A DNA stretch of 64,000 bases from Escherichia phage vB_EcoS_HZ_ZJUN2: the sequence record PP216084; one strand, 5' to 3'. A program made the translations under genes and the position numbers. Of this stretch, positions 20,881-46,338 are shown piece after piece. The notes beneath the pieces are model-generated. The model searched no databases, was not told the DNA's origin, and was given only the letters and a program-made list of their open reading frames with translations. Within the stretch, counting starts at the first letter, position 1; the number at the start of each line of letters is the position of its first letter.

Positions 20881-21648
20881 TTATTCAGCAGCCGCAGCTT
20901 TTGCATCCAGTTTAGCACGCTTAGCGGCACCATCATAGTCCTTAGCAACCAGACCACGACGAGACAGCATAGATTTAACACCACGCTCAGACTTACCAGT
21001 TTTCTCAGCGATCTCAGCAACAGTCATGTTAACCAGATCCAGACCTTCTAACAGATCTTCACGAGTTTTAGCACTTGAAGTTTCCTGTACCGGCATAGCA
21101 GCGATACGACCTTCACGAAGCAGGCTCAGAGCTTTACCACGGATCTGCTTAATATTGCGACCGAAGTGAGCAGCGATAGCTTCAATAGTAGCACCAGCAA
21201 CAACCTGATTAACAAAATCAGTTTCTTCATCCGGAGTGAAGGAACGAACAGCGGCAGCTTTTTCGGTTGGTTTAACAGAAGCGGTCATTTCCAGACTCAG
21301 GATCTTACCCTGTACCTGTTTAGCACCGAACTGACCACCAGCTACAGCAGCAGCGATTTCAGCATAGGTATACTGACCAGCATGAGCGTTCAGGAAATCA
21401 ACCAGCTCAGCTTCCTGCTCAGGAGTCCACGGGGATTTCTGTACTTCGTTAGCTTTCTGTACTTCAAAACCTTCTTTACGCAGTTTAGAGCCAACAGAGC
21501 GAGCAGTAACATCTTTGCCAGTTTCAGCAGCTAGTTCAGCAGCAATAGCAGCTACTTGTTCTTGAGAGATTACAGCAACACCCAGAGCAGTGGCTTTTGC
21601 TTTCAGAGACTCGGTTACACCTTCTACGTTCCAGTTCAGTTTAGACAT
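20881..21648 (-). CDS. DNA-binding protein with three helix-turn-helix-like repeats (D5-like by position)
   Basis: 255 aa, Ala-rich; three repeats of an …EIA…G…KQ.RGK.LS… module. Confidence 0.5.
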   Translation of the reverse strand: MSKLNWNVEGVTESLKAKATALGVAVISQEQVAAIAAELAAETGKDVTARSVGSKLRKEGFEVQKANEVQKSPWTPEQEAELVDFLNAHAGQYTYAEIAAAVAGGQFGAKQVQGKILSLEMTASVKPTEKAAAVRSFTPDEETDFVNQVVAGATIEAIAAHFGRNIKQIRGKALSLLREGRIAAMPVQETSSAKTREDLLEGLDLVNMTVAEIAEKTGKSERGVKSMLSRRGLVAKDYDGAAKRAKLDAKAAAAE

Positions 21649-22423
21649 TATTATTTTTCTCCAATAGTTCTTTAATCGACAGGATTTCTATCCCATTCGT
21701 TTCGGCTTTCTTATAAGATGAGGAAGAACGTTTTGATTCATCCTCACAGATTAGGTATTTGACGTCTTTGGTAACGGATTTCTTAACCGTATACCCTAGA
21801 CCTTCTAAATAGTTTGTTGCATCCGTTCTATTTGCAAAATCTTGCAAAGATCCGGTAATACATACCGCGATTCCATTTGGCTTGGCAACTAATTCATCCG
21901 TAGTGATAATATTAGCTTTAGTGCCCTTAATACCAGTTGAGAATTTCCACGGTAGTTCGATAACATCCTTGCCTTGTGGGGAATTTAGCCAGGCTTTGTA
22001 ATTTTCTCCAGCCTTGCCGTCAGCCTTCACATCATGGAAGCTAGTGCAATTTTGGGATAATTTCTTTGCTGCAACCTCTCCAATTAGAGGGATTCCTAAA
22101 GAACCGAGAACTGAACCAAAGTCAATGTCTCCGCGAACTTTAGTATTTAATTCGCTAATTAACTTAGCGGCAACCTTGCTACCCACGGCTCTAACCAAAT
22201 CTTCTTCGGTTAGGTAAAATAGTTCTGAAATCTTCGTCAGCTCCAGCTTCTCAATAGTTTTTGGGCCAAAGCCCTTTAACTTCATTTTTGAACAGAAGTT
22301 CTCAATTAACTTGCTTGATTGCGCTGGACAGTTGGACTTATTACGACAGAATAATTGTCCGTTGACAAGATCTAGCTTAGAACCACAAGAGGGACATTGT
22401 GTTGGAATTTCGATTTTCATCAA
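21641..22423 (-). CDS. ligB: NAD-dependent DNA ligase, C-terminal subunit (zinc finger/HhH/BRCT part)
   Basis: N-terminal Cys4 pattern CPSCGSKL…CRNKSNC; follows the adenylation-domain ORF. Confidence 0.7.
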   Translation of the reverse strand: MMKIEIPTQCPSCGSKLDLVNGQLFCRNKSNCPAQSSKLIENFCSKMKLKGFGPKTIEKLELTKISELFYLTEEDLVRAVGSKVAAKLISELNTKVRGDIDFGSVLGSLGIPLIGEVAAKKLSQNCTSFHDVKADGKAGENYKAWLNSPQGKDVIELPWKFSTGIKGTKANIITTDELVAKPNGIAVCITGSLQDFANRTDATNYLEGLGYTVKKSVTKDVKYLICEDESKRSSSSYKKAETNGIEILSIKELLEKNNNV

Positions 22424-22622: not shown

Positions 22623-23597
22623 TTAATCGTATACTCGCTCTACTATGCACGGGATTACACCACCAGCACGAATCACTCGAATCTGGCAACCGATCTCTAG
22701 ATCGAGAGAGTTAATATAATCAACGTTATTAAGAGTTGCTTTAACAATTGTAGCATCATCAATAATTACCGGTTCGAAATAACCAACTGGAGTTACTTTA
22801 CCAGAAGCCCCTACCTGCCATTCAACTTTAGTAAGAGTTGTAATCTCGCCTTCTTCATCCTCTTTAATGGCGAAGGCTCCACGAGGGAATTTATTAGTCC
22901 AGCCTTCACGGAAGAATTTGTTGTTGTCATTAATACGAACAACTTTACCGTCCGTCGGAATCCATTTAAAGAAGGAACGCACATTAACAACTGTTAAGAA
23001 GTTCTCATTCTCTAGCCAAAGCATATCTTTTAAGTATGCTTCTGTAATACCTACAGATTCAGCAGAACATTGGATACCATAAGCAACAAAGATTAAACCG
23101 CCTTCTCCAATGCGTTGTACGAAAGCATCACTATCTTTGAGGTTAATAGCACCAGAGGCAAAGTTACGTTTATTTTCTACTTCTTTTGTAATTAGAACTT
23201 CACCAGTGATTTGAGTAGGTACTTTTTGGGAAATCTTTTTAGGAATATTCAGCAATCTTACGTTGCTTGTGACATCATTCCCCAGAATACCATTACCACG
23301 AGTTAATGCTTGAACAAATTCACCGTTAATATATAATAGAGAAATTGCACAACCATCTAACTTATCAGTTTCTACCTGACCTAAAGGATTAAATGGTGGT
23401 TTATCCCCACGATTATAATAAACTTTCTGTAAAGAATACATACGGTACAGATGTGGAATATCTCCCTTAGGCCCGATCTCTTCTTCTAGTGGGAAGCGTT
23501 TTACCAGGCAATCATACTCCTCATCAGAGATTAAAGACATGCCTTGATAATATGCTTCTTGACAACGCTTAATAAAGCCTCTTACATTATTCATCAT
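22623..23597 (-). CDS. ligA: NAD-dependent DNA ligase, N-terminal adenylation subunit
   Basis: 324 aa; adenylation lysine motif KLDG (…ETDKLDGCAISLLY…). Confidence 0.8.
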   Translation of the reverse strand: MMNNVRGFIKRCQEAYYQGMSLISDEEYDCLVKRFPLEEEIGPKGDIPHLYRMYSLQKVYYNRGDKPPFNPLGQVETDKLDGCAISLLYINGEFVQALTRGNGILGNDVTSNVRLLNIPKKISQKVPTQITGEVLITKEVENKRNFASGAINLKDSDAFVQRIGEGGLIFVAYGIQCSAESVGITEAYLKDMLWLENENFLTVVNVRSFFKWIPTDGKVVRINDNNKFFREGWTNKFPRGAFAIKEDEEGEITTLTKVEWQVGASGKVTPVGYFEPVIIDDATIVKATLNNVDYINSLDLEIGCQIRVIRAGGVIPCIVERVYD

Positions 23598-27211: not shown

Positions 27212-29975
27212 CTAGCTCTGACATTGCTTCTTCTGCCATAGCCTTCTCTTCCTCTGTCATGAATTTGAAAGGAATTGGCATACACTCGATTTTACAATAG
27301 GTTCTGTACCAGTCTACGATATTCTCCGTGTTCATATCTTTACCAATACCCATCATACCAAGATACATTCTAGCATATTTTGGGTTAGCACTCTGGCCTG
27401 TTTTAAGGAAGAAATCCTTTTTCTTACCTTTTAGAGCTTCTATGAATGGTTTAATGGTTACATTTGAACACTTCTTAATGTCTTCCCAGAACATCTCGTG
27501 CATCTTATGAAAGAATGCAGCTCGATCATTTGGTTTATCTTTGATATATTGTTCAACATGCTCAACTGTTACATCTTTAATAGACTCAAGATGATAATAG
27601 CGAACAATAAGTAGTTTAGCTTCATACGCATCAGCATGACGTGGAGCACAATAATCCGGAGTTGAATGTAGAATAGCTTTGATTCGCTCTTCCGTATACT
27701 CTTTTCCTGCACCTTCGATAGTTCCCCAGCTTTCACTGAAAATATCAATAGTTGCACCCTGATCAAGCAAGTAATAGCGTAGAGTACTAGTATAGTTTCT
27801 AGATTCCAGCTCCCTGCGACGTGCATATAGTTGCTGTGCTAACTCCAGCCAACCCTCATCAATGTTATATTGCTCAGAACCTGCGGAGAATCCACTCGTA
27901 GATTTATCAATAAAATAATAAATGTTCTGAGCGCCACGGTCGCGCCTGATTGCTTGGAAACGCATGTTTGGCGCTTGGTTTGAGGTTCTAGTGATAACGA
28001 ATACGTTATCAAAATAGTTGAAGTCAACACCACTAGTTACGGATGGACTACATAATAAGCAATCAATTTGTTGGTCAATTAGCTCATTAGTTGTGTAATC
28101 CAGGATACGTCGAATATCTACATCAGACGTAGAGTTTGAATGGATTTCCTTAACTAACGCACCCGTATTACGACGCAATGCCATGCCCTTCTCATTCAGT
28201 TCATCAGGGCCACAATCAGATACCAGAATAGATTTCTCCCCCATCTCTAGAGAAGTCTGAAGTGCAACCCAAATACTGGATTCGTCAGGGAATTCATAAG
28301 CATGAGCTTTTGATAGCATCTTACGGTGATGATTATAAAATGCTACTGGTTTATCAAAATCAATTAGAGAACCATATGCTTCAATAGTTTCGGCACTAAT
28401 ATCACCATCTGATAGAATCACAGTTTTAGCTGTCATGAGGATGTCACGTAGAACTTGAATACATTCGCGACGTTGTTTAACAACTGGGGCGAATAATAGA
28501 TCATTCATTACAGCGTCACATTCATCAATAAAGATGGTGTCTATTTGACCAATAAAACTTTTGAACTTATGCAAAGAGTGAATAGTTGTGGACATACGAT
28601 CAATAGCCCCACGTTTAAAGTTGAGCATATCTACAGACTTATCATATTGTCCTGCGCTAAATTTCTTAGCGTTTGAAGATACCAGCGCTCTAGTATTTGT
28701 AACTGCTAAAAAGTTGCCAGGAAGAACACCTGCGTCCAGCCATTTAGTTACTGCCGTAGTTTTACCAGTACCAAGACTTGCCTTAACAAAGGTTATGTGG
28801 CCTTTTGGAGGCACAATGTTAATCTTCAGGTATGGAACTTCTGGTGGAGAATCCACTTCTAATTTCTTGAGTGGAACACCCTTCAGATTTAATGGAATCT
28901 CACGTTTAGAATTATTAACAAACGCTTTGAGAGCCTGCTTACGACCGTTATTAAAGTAATCTTGAATATTACGACTGTTATCTTTAGTTGCAATATATTC
29001 AGATAAAGCGGGTTTAATCTCACGTTCTAGCCATGCGAAATCAACACCATCCTCTAATGCTCTATGGTATAGTTTAGGGATAATACGCAAGTACACCCCA
29101 TCCTCAGCTTCTTCCAATTCGCTGATAGTTTCTTCTACTTTATCAGACGCGATCTTTTTGCCTTTAATTTGGTCAAGTAAGGAATAGAATTCCTCTTTGA
29201 ACTCCCCTCTAGTTGTTTCATAGTCAACCAGATTATTAGGCAAATTTACCTTCGAACCTTTAACATACACCAGACGTGGCTTACTCTCCGCTTTAAACGG
29301 ATCAACAATACCATCACTAAATAAAGGATCGGCAAAATAATGGAGCTGGACAGATGAATAATAAGCTAAGTCGGCAATGTCAAAACCGAATTTTTGCTTA
29401 CTACTATCATTGATAGACGTAAATAAGAACTTTAACTGACCTTGAGTTACCTTGACGTTAGATTCTAGCATTAAGTGCATTCGGATACCTGGTTTTAGGC
29501 CAGCCGAAGACGATGCATGAGCAATAAATCCTGCATCAAGAGGAAACATGTCCTCACTAATACTATTCAACATCTTAATAATGTGGCGGGCCATACCTAC
29601 AAGATTAAACTTGTCGTATCCACCGGTATCTAGGATACCATCCACGTCCATAGCAATAATATTGCTATGGTTGGATACATTAAAGTTACCTTTCTTACGC
29701 CGCACGTTATTTTTAGGTGCAAGACATCGACCTCGTACCGCAACGATATGAGGGTCTGACGTTAAACGTCTCATAAGAGGTAACATTTCGGCAAGGCTTT
29801 GCGGGTCATGCTCTTCTATTACATCAAATTTGAATGGCATAGAGGCTGGTTTACCTTCTGGATGCTCTTTCGAGAATCGCTTGGCAAAGGTATAATCTTC
29901 CGCTTTGATTTCTCGCCAAATACCTGTTGCTAAATCGCGAGAAAATCCGGCGTGACCTTGAAGAATAGAAAACAC
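27189..29975 (-). CDS. large P-loop NTPase, putative replication-initiation/origin-binding helicase
   Basis: 928 aa; Walker A SLGTGKTTAV, Walker B TIFIDECDAV. Confidence 0.6.
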   Translation of the reverse strand: MFSILQGHAGFSRDLATGIWREIKAEDYTFAKRFSKEHPEGKPASMPFKFDVIEEHDPQSLAEMLPLMRRLTSDPHIVAVRGRCLAPKNNVRRKKGNFNVSNHSNIIAMDVDGILDTGGYDKFNLVGMARHIIKMLNSISEDMFPLDAGFIAHASSSAGLKPGIRMHLMLESNVKVTQGQLKFLFTSINDSSKQKFGFDIADLAYYSSVQLHYFADPLFSDGIVDPFKAESKPRLVYVKGSKVNLPNNLVDYETTRGEFKEEFYSLLDQIKGKKIASDKVEETISELEEAEDGVYLRIIPKLYHRALEDGVDFAWLEREIKPALSEYIATKDNSRNIQDYFNNGRKQALKAFVNNSKREIPLNLKGVPLKKLEVDSPPEVPYLKINIVPPKGHITFVKASLGTGKTTAVTKWLDAGVLPGNFLAVTNTRALVSSNAKKFSAGQYDKSVDMLNFKRGAIDRMSTTIHSLHKFKSFIGQIDTIFIDECDAVMNDLLFAPVVKQRRECIQVLRDILMTAKTVILSDGDISAETIEAYGSLIDFDKPVAFYNHHRKMLSKAHAYEFPDESSIWVALQTSLEMGEKSILVSDCGPDELNEKGMALRRNTGALVKEIHSNSTSDVDIRRILDYTTNELIDQQIDCLLCSPSVTSGVDFNYFDNVFVITRTSNQAPNMRFQAIRRDRGAQNIYYFIDKSTSGFSAGSEQYNIDEGWLELAQQLYARRRELESRNYTSTLRYYLLDQGATIDIFSESWGTIEGAGKEYTEERIKAILHSTPDYCAPRHADAYEAKLLIVRYYHLESIKDVTVEHVEQYIKDKPNDRAAFFHKMHEMFWEDIKKCSNVTIKPFIEALKGKKKDFFLKTGQSANPKYARMYLGMMGIGKDMNTENIVDWYRTYCKIECMPIPFKFMTEEEKAMAEEAMSELGARNDSE

Positions 29976-30473
29976 AACAATACTCCTGTGTTGGTTAATC
30001 GAAAATCTTTTCTTTAGGACTATTCAGAAAGAATAGAACAACTATTACTACTATTTACGTAAACATCAATTATCATCAAGCAATATGAATAAGTTATCAT
30101 ATCTCAGTGCTGTGCTCTCTTCGCTCATATACAGAATAGAACCTAGGTCATTGGCCGCTAAGCCGATTCTATTTGTCCTCACTATCCTATTGGTAGGTGA
30201 CTACTGTACGTGCCGCCATTCGCTGCTCTTTTCGTTCGCACCCCCATATAAAGCTCTGCCTATATAACGAGCTAAATATGCACGGTTTGGATTTACCTTT
30301 CCGAATTCAGGGTACACAGATCACTTAATTGAAGATTAACTAATGCAATATAAACACTAGTAATAGTTAAAACAACCCTTAATGGGGCAGCCTAACTGTT
30401 CCGTATCGCGGATTGTAAACAAGAAAAATTAGCAAAATCAATTTTTACTAATGTCTCTCAATTCAATATAAAT

Positions 30474-30502
30474 ATTATATCAAGATTTTGGGCATCATGC
30501 AA
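30474..30502 (-). promoter_or_regulatory. T5-type promoter (minus strand), about 490 nt upstream of the NTPase gene
   Basis: Reverse complement TTGCAT - 17 bp - TATAAT followed by ATTTATATTGAATTGAGAG. Confidence 0.55.
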
Positions 30503-30593
30503 GTAAATTTTTCCCAAAGGTGCTATCAGTGTCTTTGAGCATAGAGAAAACCGAGCCAAAATGACTCGGTAATCAGAGTTCAGCTAATAAAAA

Positions 30594-30986
30594 TCATTTG
30601 TCATTTAGGCCTGGAACATAGATCCCAACACGGTTTAATTGTTCTTTAGCTTCTTTGAGAATATCTGGAGTGTATTCCCAAATATCATCTTCCACCTGTA
30701 AAAGATGGGGCGAACAACCGTCATCCGGCACACGACATATGGCCAAACCACGTGGATGGAATATAGAGAAGTTTAGGGCAACAATCAAGCCCATAGCAGA
30801 CAATTCATTCCAATCCAATTCCCATTCCCCGGCGTATCCAGACAGGAAAACACCAACACAGGGATCATCTGTTTGCTGCTCAGGAAAAGTGAAGGAGGCT
30901 TGTCTTACCCCCAACCAACGTTGTAGCAGCTTTTCCGCACGCTTCACCAAACTAGGGTCAATCTGACGCCAAAATACTTGTTCCAT
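30594..30986 (-). CDS. hypothetical protein, paralogue A of a tandem pair
   Basis: 130 aa; shares PC(V/I)G…W.EL..MGL..ALN…PGL pattern with 30996-31424. Confidence 0.5.
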   Translation of the reverse strand: MEQVFWRQIDPSLVKRAEKLLQRWLGVRQASFTFPEQQTDDPCVGVFLSGYAGEWELDWNELSAMGLIVALNFSIFHPRGLAICRVPDDGCSPHLLQVEDDIWEYTPDILKEAKEQLNRVGIYVPGLNDK

Positions 30987-30995
30987 TCTGCCTCC

Positions 30996-31424
30996 TTAAG
31001 CAGTTAAACCTGGGATCATATACCCGAAACGTCGAAGTTTCTGAATCCCCTCATTTACTTCTTCCGGTGAGTAAGACCAACCATAACGTTCATTAACTTG
31101 AAAACCAGGAGATTCACTAGTTTTATAGTTAACAACGAGGCGATGCTTAGCAGGCATAAACAGCTTATAGTTTAACGCAAAAACTAAGCCCATTTCATCT
31201 AACTCTTTCCAGCCGACAATCTCTTCAAGACCATCCTCTACCTGAACAATTAAACCAATACAGGGAGCCTCATCAATATCATCTTTAAAGGCAAAGGAGA
31301 TTTCGTTATTCTCACACCATATTTTCAAAGAGTTAATAGCCTCATTATACAGGCTAGCCGGGAGAGTACGCCAAAAGTTAACCAAAATTGGGTTAGCTTC
31401 TTTAGAGAATACATTATTGAACAT
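30996..31424 (-). CDS. hypothetical protein, paralogue B of a tandem pair
   Basis: 142 aa; see paralogue A. Confidence 0.5.
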   Translation of the reverse strand: MFNNVFSKEANPILVNFWRTLPASLYNEAINSLKIWCENNEISFAFKDDIDEAPCIGLIVQVEDGLEEIVGWKELDEMGLVFALNYKLFMPAKHRLVVNYKTSESPGFQVNERYGWSYSPEEVNEGIQKLRRFGYMIPGLTA

Positions 31425-31426
31425 AT

Positions 31427-31933
31427 TTACACCTTAAATTGCTGTAAGGATTTACACATTTCAAGATCTGGGCTAAATTCTAGCATATAGCTAACAGCTT
31501 TTAAATCTTGAAGATTTATCCCAGTCCTACCGTTGACTATAACCGTTGGATACTGATACATCATAGCACCCGCATCATCAAGCACACACCAATGTTTGAG
31601 CTTATGCTTTTCAACGAAGCGAAGAACAGAATTACCCCTAGATAATCCACCCCCAGTAAAATCCGTTGTACCAAGAAAACGATCGATAAGACCTAATCCG
31701 GTCATAATCCGAACGTTCTCCATCTCATTTCTAACAGAGAACCAAGATGATACTCCAACAATCATTATCGGAGAAAGACGAATAAAGTCCTGAAAAGCCT
31801 TGAGAAGCGGTTTGAAAACCCAGTCACTTCCAAAGAAAATCTTTTCATCATCAGGTGCATGATGGTGGGAGATGCTCGAATTGAGCACTCCATCAATGTC
31901 CAGAAAAATAATTGGAGTATTACTTATTTCCAT
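31427..31933 (-). CDS. HAD-superfamily hydrolase-like protein (possible nucleotidase/phosphatase)
   Basis: N-terminal FLDIDGVLN (HAD motif I, DxDG). Confidence 0.5.
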   Translation of the reverse strand: MEISNTPIIFLDIDGVLNSSISHHHAPDDEKIFFGSDWVFKPLLKAFQDFIRLSPIMIVGVSSWFSVRNEMENVRIMTGLGLIDRFLGTTDFTGGGLSRGNSVLRFVEKHKLKHWCVLDDAGAMMYQYPTVIVNGRTGINLQDLKAVSYMLEFSPDLEMCKSLQQFKV

Positions 31934-32102
31934 TTTTGTTCCTTTCTAAGAACGTATCATACTCAACCGTATCAACATATATAACACCATAGTCATCGGA
32001 TTTATAGTCCATTTCCCACAGCTCACAGCGATAGCACCAACTACCATCCGCCCATACAAATATATCATCGGGATGTGTATAAACAGATTTAACTATGGAC
32101 AT
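31920..32102 (-). CDS. small hypothetical protein (WCYR-motif family, copy 1)
   Basis: 60 aa; DDIFVWADGSWCYRCEL. Confidence 0.4.
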   Translation of the reverse strand: MSIVKSVYTHPDDIFVWADGSWCYRCELWEMDYKSDDYGVIYVDTVEYDTFLERNKNGNK

Positions 32103-32278
32103 ATCTGTTTCTCCTCATCTCCAGAGGATAACCATATATTATCCGTAGTATAGATAATTTTATATGTGTTGCCTAATCTTTCTTTTACATTAGGAAATCT
32201 ATAGGCAAACCTATAACACCAAGTGCCAGACTCAGTTATAAAAATATCCCATTCATTATTTCTTGCTTCTCGACACAT
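32093..32278 (-). CDS. small hypothetical protein (WCYR-motif family, copy 2)
   Basis: 61 aa; WDIFITESGTWCYRFAY. Confidence 0.4.
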   Translation of the reverse strand: MCREARNNEWDIFITESGTWCYRFAYRFPNVKERLGNTYKIIYTTDNIWLSSGDEEKQICP

Positions 32279-33074
32279 AAGGTCTACCCTCTAAATGAGC
32301 TTCTACACGAGCAATAAAATCAGGGTCACTGAAAGCATCCACCGCACCTTTACTCCAGTAAGGGACACCACGTTCTTCTAGCTGGTACATCTCACTACGA
32401 GTCATACCTTGATAGCCCGGTTCCGCCGCTAGGGCACTATCGTAGTAGTTAACAACCATAAGTTTCGCAGCAGTCAAATTAAGAACAGGAAATAATTCCC
32501 AGTAGAAGTTAATTACTTGGTTAGAGCAACCAACCACAATGATCATATCTTGACTGGTAATACCATCAAAAACATTATACATTTCTGTGTATGCAGGAGC
32601 ATGCTCCCCAAAGAATATTACATTAGGTTTAACCCATTTATAATCATCTGGATCAATAGACTTGTACCCTACATCAATAATCCGTTTATTGCTACTATTA
32701 TAGCTATCAGCTACAACAACCTCTTTTAAATATCCATGAATGTGTAGAATATCACTATGTGGAACGCCAGCACGCTCAATAAGGTCATCAACGTTGGTAG
32801 TCAAGTTTACTACTTGACCTGGATATTGTTTATACCATTCACCAATACGCAAATGCGCAAGATTGGGTTCAACAGTTTTTAGCTCTTCACGACGCTTGTT
32901 GTAAAACATATGGGTTTTATGATAAAAATTACCACGAAAGGCGTGAATATTACATACTTCTTCTAGATCATAATCATCCCACAGTGCTTTACCACTAGCA
33001 GTATCAGTACGAAAAGCTCGTACACCACTTTCAACACTCAAACCTGCACCGCTAATAACAATTAATCTACGCAC
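32256..33074 (-). CDS. Sir2-like (sirtuin-fold) NAD-binding protein
   Basis: GAGLSVESGVRAFR, TTNVDDL and HIHG motifs match the sirtuin NAD-binding/catalytic signature; no zinc-ribbon cysteines. Confidence 0.6.
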   Translation of the reverse strand: MRRLIVISGAGLSVESGVRAFRTDTASGKALWDDYDLEEVCNIHAFRGNFYHKTHMFYNKRREELKTVEPNLAHLRIGEWYKQYPGQVVNLTTNVDDLIERAGVPHSDILHIHGYLKEVVVADSYNSSNKRIIDVGYKSIDPDDYKWVKPNVIFFGEHAPAYTEMYNVFDGITSQDMIIVVGCSNQVINFYWELFPVLNLTAAKLMVVNYYDSALAAEPGYQGMTRSEMYQLEERGVPYWSKGAVDAFSDPDFIARVEAHLEGRPYVSRSKK

Positions 33075-33268
33075 TATACGATTCCTCGCTTAAGTCCTTC
33101 GATAATATCTCGGAGTAAAATTGCTTCCTCCTGGCGTACCTTTTCTTGCTTAATAAGCATATCCAATCCAGCAATACAACTAGTTACACCAGCATTATAA
33201 CCAGAGTTCCATTGCTCAATGAGCATGTTTTCTATATTACTTTTTAGATTCGGCTTCGAGAATGCCAT
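33074..33268 (-). CDS. hypothetical protein
   Basis: 64-aa ORF. Confidence 0.4.
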   Translation of the reverse strand: MAFSKPNLKSNIENMLIEQWNSGYNAGVTSCIAGLDMLIKQEKVRQEEAILLRDIIEGLKRGIV

Positions 33269-33440
33269 AAAGTTTCTCCTCTAGTTCCATAACACGATTT
33301 TCATAAGAGGCACGCAACTTTTCAATTGCCAGCGCACGCACTGTAACCTCATTAGAATTAATAGCTAATTGGGCCAGGTCTTCTGTTTCCATACGTCCGT
33401 TGTAAATTAAGCGATATTTAAGATGTTTTACGTTTTTCAT
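33237..33440 (-). CDS. hypothetical protein
   Basis: 67-aa ORF. Confidence 0.4.
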   Translation of the reverse strand: MKNVKHLKYRLIYNGRMETEDLAQLAINSNEVTVRALAIEKLRASYENRVMELEEKLYGILEAESKK

Positions 33441-33649
33441 TCTTGTTCCTCAAACATTTCAATTTCTGCATTAGCAATAGAAAGGGCGGGCTCAGATAAG
33501 CACAATCCCGCCCTAGGATCAATCTTCACTTCGTCCATCCAAGTATTTACTAAACATAATTTAGTTATGTCCTCACGGAGAATGGAACCATATGCCCCAG
33601 AATCCATAATAAAATAGATACGTTCTTTATCTACCTTGTGAACTCTCAT
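33437..33649 (-). CDS. hypothetical protein
   Basis: 70-aa ORF behind the promoter at 33678-33706. Confidence 0.45.
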   Translation of the reverse strand: MRVHKVDKERIYFIMDSGAYGSILREDITKLCLVNTWMDEVKIDPRAGLCLSEPALSIANAEIEMFEEQE

Positions 33650-33677
33650 ATCTTTCTCCCATCAAATTTATAAATCT

Positions 33678-33706
33678 ATTATATATAAATTTTTGGCTGA
33701 AAGCAA
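33678..33706 (-). promoter_or_regulatory. T5-type promoter (minus strand)
   Basis: Reverse complement TTGCTT - 17 bp - TATAAT followed by AGATTTATAAATTTGATGGGAG. Confidence 0.6.
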
Positions 33707-33747
33707 ATAAAATAAAAGCCAGGTCGACTAGCAACCCGGCTTTTATT

Positions 33748-35574
33748 TTATTTAAGATTTAAGTGCTTTACTCTACCAAGTACTTCTTTTTGTTTCCCAG
33801 AATTGAATGGTCTACTGCCAGGAGACCCAAGATACCCACAAACCCTACGTGTAACTTCTATATCTTCAGATCCACAACTAGGGCATACAAAACCACGTTC
33901 AGAGGCAATAGACTCACCCATATATCCACAGTTAAAGCACTCATCAATAGGTATGTTAACACCAATATAGTGGCTGCATTCCAATCCCTTATCTACTACA
34001 TATTCAAGAGCTTTAGGGAATTTTTTCATCTGCGGCAACTCTACAAAAGAAATATTACCACCATTAGCTATTTTAGTAAAATGAGCCTCGTACTCAAATT
34101 TAATATCTGGGGCTACTTTTTCCCTTACGTCTAAATGATGACTATTAGTAAGATACCCTTTATCAGTTAGCCAGGAGTATTCTGGGAATCTATGTTCTAG
34201 TAACTTATTAAAGCGATTACATAGAGACTCACTAGGAGTAGCATACAGACTAAACCCAAGATTAGTCTCATTAGCCTTAATTTCACAACGATTTTTTAAG
34301 TGAGTAAGAACTTCTTCCGTAAATTCAATACAATCCCTATGAGTTTGTGGTAATCCAAACATTATTTGGCACATCTCATATACCCCAATATATCCGAGAG
34401 ATACAGAAGATCTACCCTCAAAAATAGGCCAGACGTATTCCTCCGCACCCAAACGTACACCAAAACCTCCGTGCATATATAGAATAGGGGCTTGTTTAGC
34501 TTTTACTTTCTTCAGCCTACCCAAGAAAAAATCATGTGCTTCAAAAGCCTCATCTACATACTTATCCAGAATATCCCAGAAATCTTCAAAAACTCCATCC
34601 GCTTCTGCAGCAACCATAGGTAGATTAATAGATACTACACCAAGATTATTACGTCCTGCAACTTCGCCAGAAGGGATAGCGGATAAAAAACTACGACAAC
34701 CCATAGGGGCTTTAAAATCGCCAGTAACAGCTACAACCTTCTCATAGCTTAAATAATCTGGATACATACGTGTAGCGGAACATTCAAGTGCTAGCTGTTT
34801 TATATCATAGTTAGGATCCCCTGGATTTTTGTTTAATCCTTCTTTAACTGAGAATACTAATTTGGGGAAGATAGGGGTTGACTCAGCAGCTCCCAAACCT
34901 TTAATACGATTTTGAAGAATGGCTTTTTGAATCATTCTTTCCTCCCACTCTTGTCCCAGACCAAAGCCCAGAGTAACAAAGGGAGTCTGCCCATTAGAGT
35001 TAAATAACGAATTGGTTTCATACTCTAGAGCCTGGAATGCATCATAACATTCTTTTTCAGTAAGTTCAGTAGCATATACAGCAGCTTTTCTTTCATCCTT
35101 AAGCCAACGTAGGCCACGCCCCAGATGTTTATTGTAGGACTTCCTAACATACGGAGCTAGAACTTCATCAATACGATCAATGGAAGTACCACCATACTGA
35201 GCACCTGATACTTGAGCAATAATCTGAGCAGTAATCGCACATGCAGTAGTTATGGATTTAGGAGTTTCAATATTCGCATTACCAATTTTAGTGCCATTTT
35301 TCAACATACCGCCTAGGTCTACTAAACAACAGTTAGTGTACCCCTGCGCCCTATAATCCATATCATGGATATGTATTTTACCTAGATTATGGGCGTCTAA
35401 TAAATGTTTAGGTAATTCTTGTGATACTAAATACTTGTTGATTTCTCCAGCTAGTAAGTCCCTCTGCGTATGAAACATCTCGCTAGGTTTATTAGCATTA
35501 TTATGCTGCAAGTCTTTGTCAGCAGTTAGAGTAAGTAAACCTTTGCAATTTTCAATTAGTTCATTTTCTGTCAT
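33748..35574 (-). CDS. nrdD: anaerobic ribonucleoside-triphosphate reductase (class III)
   Basis: 608 aa; C-terminal zinc ribbon C..C…CPSCG and glycyl-radical motif RVCGYLG. Confidence 0.85.
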   Translation of the reverse strand: MTENELIENCKGLLTLTADKDLQHNNANKPSEMFHTQRDLLAGEINKYLVSQELPKHLLDAHNLGKIHIHDMDYRAQGYTNCCLVDLGGMLKNGTKIGNANIETPKSITTACAITAQIIAQVSGAQYGGTSIDRIDEVLAPYVRKSYNKHLGRGLRWLKDERKAAVYATELTEKECYDAFQALEYETNSLFNSNGQTPFVTLGFGLGQEWEERMIQKAILQNRIKGLGAAESTPIFPKLVFSVKEGLNKNPGDPNYDIKQLALECSATRMYPDYLSYEKVVAVTGDFKAPMGCRSFLSAIPSGEVAGRNNLGVVSINLPMVAAEADGVFEDFWDILDKYVDEAFEAHDFFLGRLKKVKAKQAPILYMHGGFGVRLGAEEYVWPIFEGRSSVSLGYIGVYEMCQIMFGLPQTHRDCIEFTEEVLTHLKNRCEIKANETNLGFSLYATPSESLCNRFNKLLEHRFPEYSWLTDKGYLTNSHHLDVREKVAPDIKFEYEAHFTKIANGGNISFVELPQMKKFPKALEYVVDKGLECSHYIGVNIPIDECFNCGYMGESIASERGFVCPSCGSEDIEVTRRVCGYLGSPGSRPFNSGKQKEVLGRVKHLNLK

Positions 35575-36424
35575 TGATTATTTCCTCGATAAATTTTATA
35601 GCTACTTCTGGCTCAATATTGAAGAATTCCGTAGCACCATCAAAATCTTTGTATTGGCAATTCTGTTCTTTAAAGTAATTATGGGCTAATTTTTCGATTT
35701 GAACTGCATCACTATATTCTCCAATTTCAAATACTTTAATTACTTCCAGATCAGTAAGGTGACTACTAGATTTAATATGTAAAAGTCTACGCTCTGGATT
35801 GTTAGACCTACCTATTTTAACACCATGTGAAGGGCTATGCATAATATATACCTTAGTATTTTCTAAATCCCTATATTTACAGTAAGGACAACCATTTCCT
35901 CCTAACACGGATCCTGGAGTAGCTTCCCACTGGTGCCCTGCACCACAGAGAAAGGTGGTCTTAGTATTTGCATTACTATATTCACCTACTATTCTAATAT
36001 TCCTAGCAGTAAGACGATCGTTTATATTATTAATACTAAGTTTTTGTTTACTAATAGCACAAGATGGGCAGCCACTACCTCTATTGATTATACTATTAAG
36101 TGTAGTAGACCACTCATGACCACAAACACACCTAAATTTAGTATTTATATCGGCACTATTTTTATAGCCCTCCAACAATGTAATACCACGGCCCTGTAAT
36201 ACAGTATTAATTTTATCAATATCTAGTTTACGGCTATTAATAGAACAAGTAGGACAATTGGTCTTTCCATTCCTAATAGCATCAAATTTAGATGTCCATT
36301 GATGACCATATTCACACTGATACGTATGCCTATACCTAGAATTTTGATAAGGCTTATCCACCATAGTAAAACCACGTTCGGCTAGGCATTTATCCACTTC
36401 TTCTTGAGTTAATTTTTTCGGCAT
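35561..36424 (-). CDS. homing-endonuclease-like protein: three zinc-ribbon repeats plus GIY-YIG-superfamily (T5orf172-type) domain
   Basis: Start set at the MPKK ATG (36424) with GGAGAAGAGG RBS; three C..GH.W…G.GCP.C repeats; VYIMHSPSHGVKIGRSNNPERRLLHI. Confidence 0.6.
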   Translation of the reverse strand: MPKKLTQEEVDKCLAERGFTMVDKPYQNSRYRHTYQCEYGHQWTSKFDAIRNGKTNCPTCSINSRKLDIDKINTVLQGRGITLLEGYKNSADINTKFRCVCGHEWSTTLNSIINRGSGCPSCAISKQKLSINNINDRLTARNIRIVGEYSNANTKTTFLCGAGHQWEATPGSVLGGNGCPYCKYRDLENTKVYIMHSPSHGVKIGRSNNPERRLLHIKSSSHLTDLEVIKVFEIGEYSDAVQIEKLAHNYFKEQNCQYKDFDGATEFFNIEPEVAIKFIEEIINDRK

Positions 36425-36452
36425 TCCTCTTCTCCACAGAATTTTTACACCT

Positions 36453-36481
36453 ATTATACTAAACATTATCCACTATGTCAA
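36453..36481 (-). promoter_or_regulatory. consensus sigma70 promoter (minus strand)
   Basis: Reverse complement TTGACA - 17 bp - TATAAT. Confidence 0.65.
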
Positions 36482-43630: not shown

Positions 43631-43899
43631 TGTCTATTCTTTTATCTGCTTTAGAAGCAAAACAAAATACTATTGCTGTTATTAGACAGGAAGTAATTAA
43701 TCTAGAGTCACTTATTGCCGCAGAGATTGATAAAGCAATCAAAGAAAAAGAATTTAACTGCCATATTCAGGGATTAACTGAATATTCAGAAAACGCCAGA
43801 AACAGCGTTATGCAACGACTCACTAAACTAGGCTATGTCGTAGAAGCTAAGTATGAGCAGCGTGAAGGCTATTGGGTAACTATTGATTGGAGCAAATAA
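43630..43899 (+). CDS. hypothetical protein
   Basis: 89-aa ORF, stop overlaps the rnh start. Confidence 0.45.
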   Translation: MSILLSALEAKQNTIAVIRQEVINLESLIAAEIDKAIKEKEFNCHIQGLTEYSENARNSVMQRLTKLGYVVEAKYEQREGYWVTIDWSK

Positions 43900-44375
43900 T
43901 GTCGGTTTTCCACATTTACACAGATGGTGCTTGTAAGTCTAATCCAGGTCCCGGTGCTTGGGGTTTTATTGTCTATGATGATAACGACGATCGTTTAGGT
44001 TCTAAATCTGGTTATAATCCTAAAACTACAAATAATGAGATGGAACTCACGGCTATTGTAGAGGCTCTACGTTGGTCAGTTAAAAAAGATAATAGACCAA
44101 TTGTTATCTATACTGATTCTGCTTATTGCAAAAATGGTATGGAAAGCTGGATGTTCTCTTGGCAAAGGAAAGGCTGGAAGAAAGCAGATGGTGAAGTTCC
44201 TCTTAATTTAGAACTTTGGCAGGAAGCATTTAAATTAACACAGCAGTATATCAACTTCCACAATACTAATCCTACCTTTATTAAGGTAAAAGGGCACTCA
44301 GGAATTAGTGGTAATGAAGCTGTAGATGCATTATGTAACACAGTTATTACTGAGCAAGAACTTGCCGAGATGTGA
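43899..44375 (+). CDS. rnh: ribonuclease H (RNase HI-like)
   Basis: YTDGACKSNPGPGAWG, NNEMELTAI, IYTDSAY, KGHSGISGNEAVDALC; start placed at the ATG overlapping the upstream stop. Confidence 0.8.
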   Translation: MSVFHIYTDGACKSNPGPGAWGFIVYDDNDDRLGSKSGYNPKTTNNEMELTAIVEALRWSVKKDNRPIVIYTDSAYCKNGMESWMFSWQRKGWKKADGEVPLNLELWQEAFKLTQQYINFHNTNPTFIKVKGHSGISGNEAVDALCNTVITEQELAEM

Positions 44376-44396
44376 TAAATAAATTAAAAAATTTTC

Positions 44397-44425
44397 TTGC
44401 TTAAAGCCCTCTAATTTAGTATAAT
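44397..44425 (+). promoter_or_regulatory. T5-type promoter bracketed by a 9-bp inverted repeat
   Basis: TTGCTT - 17 bp - TATAAT; AAAGCCCTC (44403-44411) and GAGGGCTTT (44444-44452) flank the -10 and RBS. Confidence 0.6.
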
Positions 44426-44452
44426 ATTCGTATTGAAAGTGAGGAGGGCTTT

Positions 44453-44731
44453 ATGCGGATTTATAACTCAAATTCACTAGGATTTAAACCATTGAGAAAA
44501 CGTGCACAATCACCTCGTCAAATAAGAAAGGCTAATATTGGTGAACCAGAAACACGTCTTCCACCCCCTCCAGAACAACGTTTAGTTTATCTGGATGAAG
44601 AATTAGCTGAACGCGAAAGAAAAGCTCAAGAAGAGATTGAGCGTAAGAAAATGTGTACTGCTCCAGCGTATAATAAAGGAGCGTATCAATATGTTTCCGA
44701 TGCAGAACAAGCCAAGATGGTTGGTAGATAA
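44453..44731 (+). CDS. hypothetical protein
   Basis: 92-aa ORF with GAGGAGGG RBS. Confidence 0.5.
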   Translation: MRIYNSNSLGFKPLRKRAQSPRQIRKANIGEPETRLPPPPEQRLVYLDEELAERERKAQEEIERKKMCTAPAYNKGAYQYVSDAEQAKMVGR

Positions 44732-44747
44732 TTTTTAAAAAATTCAG

Positions 44748-44776
44748 TTGCTAAACGCTTCAAATTCTCGTATAAT
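44748..44776 (+). promoter_or_regulatory. T5-type promoter
   Basis: TTGCTA - 17 bp - TATAAT followed by ATACTTCATAAATTGATAAAC. Confidence 0.65.
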
Positions 44777-44814
44777 ATACTTCATAAATTGATAAACAAA
44801 AAGGAAAACAAATA

Positions 44815-45330
44815 ATGGCTAAGCAAAAAAACGCAAAAACTCAAGCAGCTACTACAGTTAAAACTTTCCCGCAGACTGAGGCTAACCGCAAAGCTCGTCT
44901 GGAACGCCACCTGCGCAAGCATCCTACTGATGCTCAAGCTGCACAGGCACTGAATCGTCCGGCTCCGATTCGTCAAAAGCCGAAGGCTAAGAATGCTACT
45001 CGTTCTGTAACCCGCCTTGTGACCTATGTACAGGGTTATGGCCACAAATCTGTTCCAGTAACACTGAGTTTCAATGCTGGAGCTGAATTGTTCTCTCGTA
45101 ATGGCATGGCCATGAAAGATTATGAGAAAGCAGTTAACCAGAAACGCAAGCCAACGGCAGATCTGCTTCGTGACACTCGTGGACAGTTTGGCTCTGTTAA
45201 GCCAAATATCTTTGGCGTAGAGTATAGTAAAGATAGTGTTCGTGCTCTGTGTTACGGTGTAGGCATTAAGTTCACTGGTGATTCTGCTCGTAAATCTGCT
45301 AAACCAGCTCGTAAACGTAAAGCGAAGTAA
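44815..45330 (+). CDS. highly basic hypothetical protein (possible nucleic-acid-binding protein)
   Basis: 171 aa, Lys/Arg-rich termini. Confidence 0.5.
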   Translation: MAKQKNAKTQAATTVKTFPQTEANRKARLERHLRKHPTDAQAAQALNRPAPIRQKPKAKNATRSVTRLVTYVQGYGHKSVPVTLSFNAGAELFSRNGMAMKDYEKAVNQKRKPTADLLRDTRGQFGSVKPNIFGVEYSKDSVRALCYGVGIKFTGDSARKSAKPARKRKAK

Positions 45331-45371
45331 TAGATAGGAGGGGCTTTCGCCCCTCATAGTTTGGAGAAACT

Positions 45372-45608
45372 ATGCGTAATTTTGTAGTAAAGAATGATTT
45401 TAACCGTGCTAGCACCCATAAGTCCGCTAGAGATTATACAAGACTTTCTAGTCATGAGGTAATGGACACCTGTTATGAAGAGCTGGAAGGTAGCTGGAAT
45501 GAATGGCCCAACTTCTCTATGGAAGAAAACTGGGATGTCAGTGAGGATATGCTTCCTGGTTTTAAAGACCCCAAGAAGTGGGAGTCTATTAAAGAGACAG
45601 CTCTTTAA
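45372..45608 (+). CDS. hypothetical acidic protein
   Basis: 78-aa ORF. Confidence 0.45.
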   Translation: MRNFVVKNDFNRASTHKSARDYTRLSSHEVMDTCYEELEGSWNEWPNFSMEENWDVSEDMLPGFKDPKKWESIKETAL

Positions 45609-45636
45609 TAGTTTTCTACACAATAAAGGATAAGTT

Positions 45637-46338
45637 ATGAAAGTAAAACCATTTGGTATGCTAGATATTGAATCTCTAGGAACTCCAGGAGATTGTGGTA
45701 CTACTCATATCGTAATGCCTTCTTTCGCTTTTGTGGCTATGCATGGGATTGATAAAGACCCTGACTTAGTATTTGCTACTTTGGATGTGCAGGATCAGCT
45801 TAATTCTGGTGCCAAAGTTACAGCATCTACTCTAGCATTCTGGATGGATCAAGCTAAAAATAGCCCGTCTGCTATTCACATTATGGAAGCTATGAAGGAA
45901 CGTAATCCAAAACTGATTGCCTTCCAAAATGGTAAACATCATTGCACTAATAAATTAGGCTCAAACTATGCTGCCTTCTCTATGGCTCAAAATATTATGG
46001 AGTTGGCTCTAGGCGAAAATGCTTTGTATTATGGCAATGGCCCAGAGTTTGATATGACTATCTACTCTGCAAACACGTTCCATGCTGGAACCAATGAAGA
46101 GGTAGTTCCGTGGAAATTCTGGAATTTAGGCAATGTTCGATCTCTTCGTAATCTCTGGATGCAAGCTGGTTATAGTTACAAAGATCTAGAGGCTGAAGGT
46201 ATTAGCTGGGCAAAAGCTAAAATGGAGAAGATGGACACCATTCGTTATGGGATCTATCCGGTTAAGCACGACCCAGCATTCGATGCCCTAGTTGAGGGCT
46301 ATTGTGTTGCAGCTATGATCGAAAAAATGAAAATTTGA
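45637..46338 (+). CDS. putative DEDDh-family 3'-5' exonuclease (DexA-like)
   Basis: 233 aa; N-terminal LDIESLG (Exo I D-x-E) and C-terminal HDPAFDA (Exo III H…D) patterns. Confidence 0.5.
   Translation: MKVKPFGMLDIESLGTPGDCGTTHIVMPSFAFVAMHGIDKDPDLVFATLDVQDQLNSGAKVTASTLAFWMDQAKNSPSAIHIMEAMKERNPKLIAFQNGKHHCTNKLGSNYAAFSMAQNIMELALGENALYYGNGPEFDMTIYSANTFHAGTNEEVVPWKFWNLGNVRSLRNLWMQAGYSYKDLEAEGISWAKAKMEKMDTIRYGIYPVKHDPAFDALVEGYCVAAMIEKMKI

What the first reader, a model, noticed from the sequence alone, without database searches (positions are those of the whole stretch)
30594..33649. Accessory cluster: Sir2-like protein, HAD-like hydrolase and two pairs of tandem paralogues
Nine minus-strand ORFs downstream of nrdD include a sirtuin-fold protein with the NAD-binding signature but no zinc ribbon, a HAD-motif-I protein, a diverged tandem duplicate pair (130 and 142 aa) and a pair of 60-aa proteins sharing a D-IF…G-WCYR motif. 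NAD-consuming and NAD-modifying enzymes are central to several bacterial anti-phage systems, so a phage-borne Sir2-like enzyme with phosphatase and small paralogous partners is a plausible host-takeover or counter-defence module. No function can be assigned from sequence alone.
Basis: partly seen in the sequence, partly recalled or inferred. Interest (0 to 1): 0.65.

Follow-up and report, generated by a model that had tools for sequence, protein, structure and literature searches.

The report
Phage T5 sirtuin–phosphatase early operon
This is the well-conserved early operon of T5-like phages that carries a zinc-less CobB-like sirtuin next to an RNA-repair-type HAD phosphatase; the gene pair has already been described and predicted by others to act in NAD-dependent RNA repair, but nobody has tested it.

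Summary
Nine tightly packed minus-strand genes (30594-33649) form one unit, from a T5-type promoter just after the nrdD terminator to their own terminator. The window is a T5-like phage, and the cluster is the orthologue of T5 genes T5.100-T5.107.

- **Sirtuin:** a bona fide Sir2-family member closest to E. coli CobB. All NAD and catalytic motifs are intact, including the class-III YxxR, but there are no zinc cysteines.
- **HAD protein:** belongs to PF18143, the "Swiss-Army-Knife RNA-repair" HAD family. Its catalytic residues are invariant and the predicted fold is cap-less.
- **130/142-aa pair:** DUF7415 proteins with a confidently predicted fold that has no solved relative. The domain is fused or adjacent to nucleotide-metabolism enzymes elsewhere.
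- **60-aa pair:** both belong to phrog_5116.

Sirtuin-HAD adjacency survives gene-order inversion in divergent relatives. Orthologous sirtuins in rV5-like phages sit beside RNA ligase, cREC and a kinase; in jumbo phages they sit beside Nudix and NAD-salvage genes.

Iyer et al. 2022 (PMC9503650) already described this neighbourhood and predicted a KptA-like NAD-dependent RNA repair role. I found no experiment. A natural deletion in phage DT57C shows the sirtuin-HAD part is dispensable in that phage.

Verdict: real and already known as a computational prediction. Moderate interest.

The parts
33678..33706 (-). T5-type early sigma-70 promoter, TTGCTT-17 nt-TATAAT, immediately upstream of the first gene
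   Evidence: Read directly from the sequence. It corresponds to the annotated 'putative early promoter T5P31' in the T5 records. The consensus scan missed it because TTGCTT matches TTGACA at only 3 of 6 positions.
33437..33649 (-). 70-aa protein (phrog_20147). Variable head of the operon.
   Evidence: PHROG E 1.2e-38. Homologues are 4MG_102 inside an RNA-ligase cluster (E 2e-7) and Eos119 (51% identity). T5 itself carries other genes at this position.
33237..33440 (-). 67-aa protein (phrog_5236), function unknown
   Evidence: PHROG E 2.8e-46. Weak similarity to My1_097.
33074..33268 (-). 64-aa protein (phrog_5827), function unknown
   Evidence: PHROG E 1.6e-28.
32256..33074 (-). Zinc-less CobB-like (class-III-type) sirtuin, orthologue of T5.102. 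GTG start.
   Evidence: PF02146 E 5.9e-25; phrog_2162 E 2.2e-121. The best solved relative is E. coli CobB (1S5P), E 1.3e-17. It falls below all NCBIfam CobB cutoffs and has no PADLOC hit.
32093..32278 (-). 61-aa small protein with the WCYR motif (phrog_5116), orthologue of T5.103
   Evidence: A w61-type homologue follows the sirtuin in contig L018 (45% identity, E 5e-17).
31920..32102 (-). 60-aa paralogue of the previous gene (phrog_5116), orthologue of T5.104
   Evidence: It lies next to the sirtuin across Tequintavirus, Epseptimavirus and Klebsiella T5-like phages. It also occurs without a sirtuin in Kolesnikvirus phages.
31427..31933 (-). Cap-less HAD phosphatase of the 'Swiss-Army-Knife RNA repair' family (PF18143), orthologue of T5.105
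30996..31424 (-). 142-aa DUF7415 protein, orthologue of T5.106
   Evidence: PF24187 E 2.6e-35. 32% identical to the next gene. Its orthologue in phage Eos is Eos115.
30594..30986 (-). 130-aa DUF7415 protein, orthologue of T5.107
30550..30570 (-). Intrinsic terminator that closes the operon
   Evidence: A 9-bp stem with 5 G-C pairs followed by a T-run. A terminator is annotated at the same place in T5.

Best explanation
The region is the T5.100-T5.107 early operon of a T5-like phage: one strong early promoter, nine translationally coupled genes and one terminator.

Its functional core is a pair of enzymes that travel together. The first is a zinc-less CobB-like sirtuin. The second is a cap-less HAD phosphatase of the Swiss-Army-Knife RNA-repair family.

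The mechanism I consider most likely is the one predicted by Iyer et al. 2022. The sirtuin uses NAD+ as an ADP-ribosyl donor to attack a phosphate on damaged RNA. That phosphate would be a 2'-phosphate derived from the 2',3'-cyclic ends left by host anticodon or toxin RNases. The reaction releases nicotinamide and an ADP-ribose phosphate, as KptA/Tpt1 does. The HAD then removes a terminal phosphomonoester, either from the RNA end or from the ADP-ribose-phosphate by-product.

Shown here: the enzymes' family membership, their intact active-site motifs, the operon structure and the conserved neighbourhoods. Inferred: the substrates and the biological role.

The DUF7415 pair is probably a separate function tied to nucleotide metabolism. 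The three leading small ORFs are interchangeable cargo.
For: - Sirtuin and HAD stay adjacent in distant relatives: My1, and contigs L018 and L020, where the order is inverted to HAD-x-sirtuin and DUF7415 is absent.
- Orthologous sirtuins (56-61% identity) in Vequintavirinae sit in the order RNA ligase - cREC (PF20274) - 5'-kinase (AAA_33) - sirtuin, with a MazG-like gene or DNA ligase following.
- In jumbo phages the sirtuin is followed by a Nudix gene and lies near NMNAT and NAMPT genes.
- The HAD is PF18143. Its closest structural relatives are cap-less HADs that act on macromolecule-borne phosphates.
- The same HAD clade (about 40% identity) also sits directly upstream of a Prs-like plus NAPRTase pair with the architecture of NARP1. 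This fits a phosphatase that acts on ADP-ribose phosphates.
- The sirtuin has lost its zinc cysteines. It also replaces the peptide-binding VxP loop with VINF, while keeping an invariant YNxRR anion-binding motif.
- The prediction is published: PMC9503650 section 3.7.3 and PMC7824862.
Against: - No experiment exists for any of these genes.
- BLAST finds no RNA ligase, polynucleotide kinase or cREC in the window or in 30-118 kb of the closest relative SP01. A self-contained repair pathway is therefore absent.
- By sequence the sirtuin looks like a lysine deacylase: CobB is the best match, and the FGE, catalytic His and YxxR motifs are intact.
- Eos-type and Klebsiella T5-like phages keep the sirtuin but lack the HAD.
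- Phage DT57C is viable with a deletion that fuses the sirtuin N-terminus to the HAD C-terminus.
- Within one virus family, adjacency can reflect inherited synteny rather than function.
Confidence: 0.4

Rival explanations
1. The sirtuin is a classical CobB-type protein lysine deacylase (deacetylase or desuccinylase). It would reprogram the host or phage acyl-proteome early in infection. The HAD and the other genes would be functionally unrelated neighbours.
For: - The best PDB and NCBIfam matches are CobB and SIRT5-type deacylases.
- GAGxS, the catalytic His, TTNVDD, FGE and the class-III YxxR motif are all present.
- An in-silico study of the KVP40-type homologue argued for deacetylase function despite the missing zinc site (PMC5107563).
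Against: - Scores are far below every CobB equivalog cutoff, for example 90.9 bits against 320.
- The zinc module that shapes the peptide cleft has lost all its cysteines, and the VxP substrate loop is VINF.
- In the three phage groups with informative annotation, the neighbours are nucleic-acid, nucleotide or NAD enzymes, never protein-modification genes.
Confidence: 0.3
2. The pair is an NAD+/ADP-ribose metabolite module that counters NAD-centred immunity. The HAD would dephosphorylate ADP-ribose-1''-phosphate or a related molecule, as the Macro-domain enzyme Adpp does in NARP1-AP. The sirtuin would process or generate a soluble ADP-ribose derivative rather than acting on RNA or protein.
For: - The same HAD clade lies directly upstream of a Prs-like plus NAPRTase (NARP1-type) pair in Serratia phage ChuuTotoro and in a metagenome contig.
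- NARP1 operons are known to recruit an ADPR-1''P phosphatase (preprint 10.64898/2026.01.28.702374).
- Jumbo-phage sirtuins lie beside NAMPT, NMNAT and Nudix genes.
- The phage depends on NAD+ through its NAD-dependent DNA ligase.
Against: - Neither the window nor SP01 30-118 kb encodes Adps, Namat, NAMPT or Nudix homologues.
- A sirtuin consumes NAD+ rather than restoring it.
- The association of the HAD with NARP1-type genes is seen in only a few genomes.
- That the ChuuTotoro genes are true Adps and Namat rests on their architecture only.
Confidence: 0.15
3. There is no module. The nine genes are independent accessory cargo kept together only by shared ancestry within Demerecviridae and by sharing one early promoter.
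For: - The head genes differ between T5 and the window.
- HAD is absent in Eos-type phages.
- DUF7415 is absent in L018 and L020.
- The small protein occurs alone in Kolesnikvirus.
- The DUF7415 core occurs beside nrdD/nrdG or rnlA in T4-like phages, away from any annotated sirtuin.
- The DT57C deletion is tolerated.
Against: - Sirtuin-HAD adjacency persists after an inversion of gene order at only 39-42% HAD identity.
- Unrelated phage families independently place this sirtuin clade next to phosphoesterases and RNA-end enzymes.
Confidence: 0.15

Closest known systems
Phage T5 genes T5.100-T5.107 (the 'putative Sir2-like protein' cluster between nrdD and the origin-binding protein)
   Same: About 93% DNA identity. 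Same position, strand, promoter and terminator, and the same order: sirtuin, small pair, HAD, DUF7415 pair.
   Different: The first genes differ: 70, 67 and 64 aa here against T5.100 (126 aa) and T5.101 (77 aa). The closest record overall is Salmonella phage SP01 at 96%.
Phage sirtuin RNA-repair neighbourhood, type 3 (Escherichia phage SP15 type) of Iyer, Burroughs, Anantharaman & Aravind 2022 (PMC9503650)
   Same: [quoted passage not shown] SP15 carries the same HAD (H260).
   Different: Nothing essential differs; this window is another example. The paper does not discuss the DUF7415 pair or the small WCYR pair.
E. coli CobB and human SIRT5 (class III sirtuin lysine deacylases)
   Same: Rossmann fold, GAGxS, catalytic His, TQNxD-type motif, FGE and the YxxR anion-binding motif. 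About 35% identity over the core.
   Different: No zinc-binding cysteines. The VxP substrate loop is replaced by VINF. Scores are far below the CobB family cutoffs. A clade-specific D(V/I)GY motif sits where the second cysteine pair would be.
KptA/Tpt1 RNA 2'-phosphotransferase
   Same: Proposed analogous chemistry: NAD+-dependent ADP-ribosyl transfer to an RNA phosphate with release of nicotinamide. In other phages the sirtuin clade is associated with RNA ligase, kinase and cyclic-phosphate enzymes.
   Different: Unrelated fold (ART superfamily against a Rossmann sirtuin). The activity is entirely untested for any sirtuin.
Adpp, the Macro-domain ADPR-1''-phosphate phosphatase of NARP1-AP (Osterman et al. 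2026 preprint)
   Same: A phosphatase gene placed directly beside a Prs-like plus Nampt-like pair. Relatives of this HAD occupy that position in ChuuTotoro-like phages.
   Different: Different fold (HAD against Macro). The window phage has no Adps or Namat. The HAD substrate is unknown.
Cap-less HAD phosphatases (MDP-1, Scp1/Fcp1 and the T4 PNK-type HAD)

Membership tests
Sir2/sirtuin family (PF02146) | Profile match above the Pfam gathering score | tested here: met
   88.7 bits against a cutoff of 24, E 5.9e-25, covering 178 of 180 profile positions.
Sir2/sirtuin family (PF02146) | NAD-binding GAGxSxxSG, the TQNxD-type motif and the catalytic His in HxHG | tested here: met
   GAGLSVESG, TTNVDD and HIHG align with the CobB motifs. 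They are conserved in five phage homologues.
Sir2/sirtuin family (PF02146) | Four-cysteine zinc ribbon in the small domain | tested here: not met
   The protein has only Cys41 and Cys183, and neither lies in the ribbon region. The same holds in My1, 4MG, CarlMeissner and KVP40.
CobB / class III deacylase (NCBIfam NF040867, NF001753 and related) | Score above the curated equivalog or subfamily cutoff | tested here: not met
   100.9 bits against 243, and 90.9 against 320.
CobB / class III deacylase | YxxR motif that binds the acyl carboxylate | tested here: met
   FYNKRR aligns with CobB FYNARR. YNxRR is invariant in all the phage homologues examined.
CobB / class III deacylase | NAD-dependent lysine deacylase activity | not testable with these tools
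   Needs an enzyme assay.
Defence-type SIR2 NADases (ThsA, DSR, Sir2-HerA and others) | Match to defence-system SIR2 models | tested here: not met
   No PADLOC family at E <= 0.1.
HAD superfamily, HAD_SAK_2 (PF18143) | Profile match above the gathering score | tested here: met
   72.1 bits against 27.5, E 7.7e-20, covering the whole profile.
HAD superfamily, HAD_SAK_2 (PF18143) | Motif I DxD, motif II S/T, motif IV DD | tested here: met
   D12, D14, S63, D119 and D120 are invariant, as is R99 in the GGGxxRG segment, in 16 sequences down to 38% identity.
HAD superfamily, HAD_SAK_2 (PF18143) | HAD Rossmannoid fold | tested here: met
HAD superfamily, HAD_SAK_2 (PF18143) | RNA 3'/2'-phosphatase activity | not testable with these tools
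   The activity is only predicted for this family in the literature (PMC7824862).
Phage sirtuin-centred RNA-repair neighbourhood (Iyer et al. 2022, type 3) | [quoted passage not shown] | tested here: met
   The genes lie 322 nt apart in one operon. The adjacency is conserved in My1, L018 and L020.
Phage sirtuin-centred RNA-repair neighbourhood (Iyer et al. 2022) | Presence of an RNA ligase or end-healing kinase to complete repair | tested here: not met
   tblastn with three RNA ligases, two kinases and a cREC against the window and SP01 30-118 kb gave nothing below E 0.4. None is annotated there. The first 30 kb of SP01 was not checked.
NARP1 / NARP1-AP NAD+ reconstitution | Adps (Prs-like) plus Namat (Nampt-like) genes | tested here: not met
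   No tblastn match in the window or in SP01 30-118 kb.
DUF7415 (PF24187) | Profile match above the gathering score | tested here: met
   120.8 and 109 bits against a cutoff of 27 for the 142-aa and 130-aa proteins.

The most novel reading that the evidence does not exclude
The T5-type sirtuin is the first sirtuin whose physiological substrate is a nucleic-acid or nucleotide phosphate rather than an acyl-lysine. It would be a KptA/Tpt1 analogue. Its partner HAD would be a non-Macro ADP-ribose-phosphate (or RNA 2'/3'-phosphate) phosphatase. Together they would let T5-like phages undo RNA damage or NAD-derived toxic metabolites produced by host immunity. The DUF7415 proteins would be a new-fold adaptor of the phage deoxynucleotide-synthesis machinery.
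Probability: 0.25. Interest if true: 0.8.

Novelty: already known. Interest (0 to 1): 0.4.

Why it matters
NAD+ is now recognised as a central battleground between bacteria and phages, through NAD-depleting defences and the NARP1, NARP2 and NARP3 counter-pathways. More than 1000 sequenced phages carry this zinc-less sirtuin clade, yet no activity has been measured for any member.

If the KptA-like prediction is right, it would extend sirtuin chemistry from protein deacylation to RNA repair. It would also explain part of how the model phage T5 copes with RNA-cleaving abortive-infection systems.

If instead the enzyme is a plain deacylase, it would be a compact tool for virus-driven rewiring of the host acyl-proteome. 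Either way, the gene pair is a well-defined and easily testable target in a classical model phage.

Tried and rejected
- **Defence-type Sir2 NADase reading:** rejected, no PADLOC match.
- **Internal duplication in the DUF7415 proteins:** Pfam's 53-residue model matches each protein in two stretches. My profile-profile comparison of the N- and C-terminal halves gave probability below 2% and BLAST found nothing. The question is left open. Only the C-terminal ~55-residue core is widespread.
- **Deep homologues of the 60-aa pair:** only six close relatives were returned, so no structure was predicted.
- **Sequence search of the HAD against the PDB:** no hit even at E 10.
- **Rfam scan of 29500-34000:** only sub-threshold matches on the nrdD terminator hairpin.
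- **NADAR/YbiA as a further NAD-linked gene:** annotated in SP01 but absent from the corresponding place in this window, so it is not claimed.
- **Literature:** searches for T5.102-T5.107 and for DUF7415 found nothing. The Burroughs & Aravind 2016 RNA-repair paper is not held in the library.
- **phAPEC8 and KVP40 sirtuin neighbourhoods:** uninformative.
Full report
**What the window is**

The 4-kb stretch around the finding matches 530 phage records. The best is Salmonella phage SP01 (96% identity) and phage T5 itself is at about 93%; all are Demerecviridae.

In the T5 records the region is genes T5.100-T5.107. They lie between nrdD (T5.099) and the replication-origin-binding protein (T5.108). 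An early promoter is annotated in front and a rho-independent terminator behind.

**Check of the observation**

All match PHROG families with E-values from 6e-24 to 2e-121. All have a Shine-Dalgarno-like motif, and neighbours overlap by 1-32 nt or are 2-9 nt apart.

Operon boundaries:
- The nrdD terminator hairpin lies at 33751-33707.
- It is followed directly by TTGCTT-17-TATAAT at 33706-33678. This is the T5 early-promoter type, and resembles the classical PN25 promoter (my own knowledge).
- A second terminator at 30570-30550 closes the unit.

So the region is one early transcription unit.

**The sirtuin**

It scores 88.7 bits on PF02146. Its closest solved relative is E. coli CobB (1S5P, E 1.3e-17), followed by archaeal Sir2 and human SIRT5.

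Conserved features:
- GAGLSVESG, TTNVDD, HIHG, FFGE and VGCS.
- The class-III motif YxxR (FYNKRR against CobB FYNARR).

Differences from cellular sirtuins:
- It reaches none of the curated CobB cutoffs.
- It has only two cysteines, neither in the ribbon region.
- The VxP substrate loop reads VINF.
- It has no similarity to defence-system SIR2 models.

Homologues occur in more than 1000 phage records across Demerecviridae, Vequintavirinae, Phapecoctavirus, KVP40-like and jumbo phages. The zinc-less state is shared by those I aligned. It had been noted before for KVP40-type proteins (PMC5107563).

**The HAD**

It belongs to PF18143, "HAD domain in Swiss Army Knife RNA repair proteins". D12, D14, S63, D119, D120 and a GGGxxRG segment are invariant down to 38% identity.

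RefSeq labels this gene "Sir2", which is an error. It appears to trace to phrog_18062. That family matches the HAD C-terminus (E 6e-58) and weakly matches a stretch of the sirtuin. This is the composition of the "defective" Sir2N::HADC fusion protein of phage DT57C.

**Are the genes linked?**

| Lineage | Gene order |
|---|---|
| My1 (distant Demerecviridae) | sirtuin, small ORF, HAD, 90 aa, one DUF7415 |
| Contigs L018 and L020 (divergent T5-like) | HAD, x, sirtuin, small ORF; order inverted, no DUF7415 |
| Eos-type and Klebsiella T5-like phages | sirtuin, small protein, DUF7415 pair; no HAD |
| Kolesnikvirus | small protein alone, after the DNA polymerase gene |
| DT57C | deletion removes most of the sirtuin, both small genes and most of the HAD; DUF7415 pair kept |

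In L018 and L020 the HAD is only 39-42% identical to the window's, yet the adjacency holds.

The sirtuin-HAD pair is therefore the best-supported functional unit. It is not obligatory, and the nine genes are not one indivisible module.

**Contexts of the sirtuin clade elsewhere**

- *Vequintavirinae* (CarlMeissner, 4MG, KPP-1). The orthologue (56-61% identity) sits after an RNA ligase, a cREC domain protein (PF20274) and a P-loop kinase (AAA_33). A calcineurin-like phosphoesterase and a MazG-like gene lie nearby.
- *Jumbo Erwinia and E. coli phages.* A Nudix hydrolase follows immediately. In the Erwinia phage, NMNAT and NAMPT genes lie a few genes upstream.

I derived these contexts independently and then found them described by Iyer, Burroughs, Anantharaman and Aravind (Viruses 2022, PMC9503650, section 3.7.3). 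They define a distinct clade of phage sirtuins with three neighbourhood types. The third is "typified by Escherichia phage SP15", a T5-like phage that carries this same HAD. [quoted passage not shown]

They propose that the sirtuin acts like KptA. It would use NAD+ to remove 2'-phosphates derived from 2',3'-cyclic ends. The associated phosphoesterases would either prepare the end or process the ADP-ribose cyclic phosphate by-product. The earlier jumbo-phage survey (PMC7824862) makes the same points about cREC and the stand-alone SAK HAD.

**Something added here**

The nearest non-T5 relatives of the HAD (about 40% identity) lie directly upstream of a Prs-like gene and a 595-aa NAPRTase-family gene. 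This is seen in Serratia phage ChuuTotoro and in a 152-kb metagenomic contig.

That two-gene architecture is the signature of NARP1, Adps plus Namat (preprint 10.1101/2024.02.11.579819). Some NARP1 operons are known to recruit a Macro-domain ADPR-1''-phosphate phosphatase, Adpp, to defeat RES-type NAD+ phosphorolysis (preprint 10.64898/2026.01.28.702374).

The position of the HAD suggests it may be a non-homologous counterpart acting on an ADP-ribose phosphate. That would also fit the by-product-processing branch of the KptA-like model. This is inference. I did not place the ChuuTotoro genes phylogenetically, and the window phage itself has no Adps, Namat, NAMPT or Nudix.

**Evidence against a complete repair pathway in this phage**

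- No RNA ligase, kinase or cREC is detectable in the window or in 30-118 kb of SP01.
- By motifs alone the sirtuin would pass for a deacylase.

For these reasons I put the KptA-like RNA-repair reading at 0.4, the plain deacylase at 0.3, a soluble NAD/ADPr-metabolite role at 0.15, and "no functional module" at 0.15.

**The DUF7415 pair**

The two proteins are 32% identical. Each has its own orthologue in phage Eos, so the duplication is old.

An exhaustive profile search found 154 representative proteins. The shared core is about 55 residues (DWNELS.xGLIxxINxxILHPxGLAxxRDPxTGxSP...WEY), corresponding to the C-terminal half of the T5-type proteins.

Associations of the core domain:
- Fused to dATP/dGTP pyrophosphohydrolase (twice), thymidylate kinase and a DUF3850/ASCH domain.
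- Lies between nrdG and nrdD in Klebsiella T4-like phages.
- Lies beside rnlA in Aeromonas phage Aeh1, in a region that also holds td and denA.

I read it as a phage-specific small domain associated with nucleotide-metabolism enzymes, perhaps an adaptor. Its function is unknown and it has no demonstrated tie to the sirtuin.

**Novelty and verdict**

The cluster has been annotated since the T5 genome records. The sirtuin-HAD neighbourhood and a mechanistic prediction were published in 2022. I found no paper with experimental data on any of these genes.

The finding is real and correctly described. Its counter-defence flavour is reasonable. It is already known as a computational prediction and remains open experimentally, so interest is moderate.

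Noticed in passing
window 31427-31933 (-); L004 (DT57C) 2854-3126: RefSeq and PHROG-based annotations label the HAD phosphatase gene 'Sir2 (NAD-dependent deacetylase)'. The label appears to come from phrog_18062. That family matches the HAD C-terminus strongly and a stretch of the sirtuin weakly, which is the composition of the 'defective' Sir2N::HADC deletion-fusion protein of phage DT57C.
   Followed up: partly
window 29976-30549 (-): About 570 nt without a convincing minus-strand ORF lies between the operon terminator and the GTG start of the origin-binding protein. A consensus promoter TTGCAT-17-TATAAT sits at 30502-30474, implying a leader of roughly 490 nt. There is no Rfam match. T5 has the same layout (promoter T5P32).
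   Followed up: partly
window 21641-22423 and 22623-23597 (-): A split NAD-dependent DNA ligase. The adenylation and OB domains are in one gene and the HhH/BRCT domains in the next, so replication of this phage depends on the NAD+ pool.
   Followed up: partly
window 35561-36466 (-): A 301-aa protein with treble-clef zinc-finger/CapR repeats plus a T5orf172/MUG113 (GIY-YIG-like) domain. It overlaps the start of nrdD by 14 nt and is probably a homing-endonuclease-type gene.
   Followed up: partly
window about 43887-44815 compared with L024 (SP01) 45345-45794: The closest relative SP01 has a gene annotated YbiA (the NADAR family, another ADP-ribose-linked domain) between the RNase H gene and the next gene. 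No ORF of that size is present at the corresponding place in this window.
   Followed up: partly
L017 6001-9217 (Serratia phage ChuuTotoro); L019 6001-9569: A HAD_SAK_2 phosphatase about 40% identical to the T5-type one lies just upstream of a Prs-like gene and a 595-aa NAPRTase-family gene (NARP1-type architecture). It abuts the Prs-like gene in L017; in L019 a 116-aa ORF intervenes. It may be a HAD analogue of the Macro-domain ADPR-1''P phosphatase Adpp.
   Followed up: partly
proteins P0096, P0097, P0081, P0152 (relatives of window 30594-30986): The ~55-residue DUF7415 core is fused to dATP/dGTP pyrophosphohydrolase, thymidylate kinase and a DUF3850/ASCH domain. In Klebsiella T4-like phages it is a stand-alone gene between nrdG and nrdD.
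   Followed up: partly
window 33437-33649 (-); L007 (4MG) 1428-1589: The first small ORF of the operon has a homologue (4MG_102, 40% identity) immediately upstream of the RNA ligase gene in the rV5-like phage 4MG. This is the same cluster that holds that phage's sirtuin.
   Followed up: no
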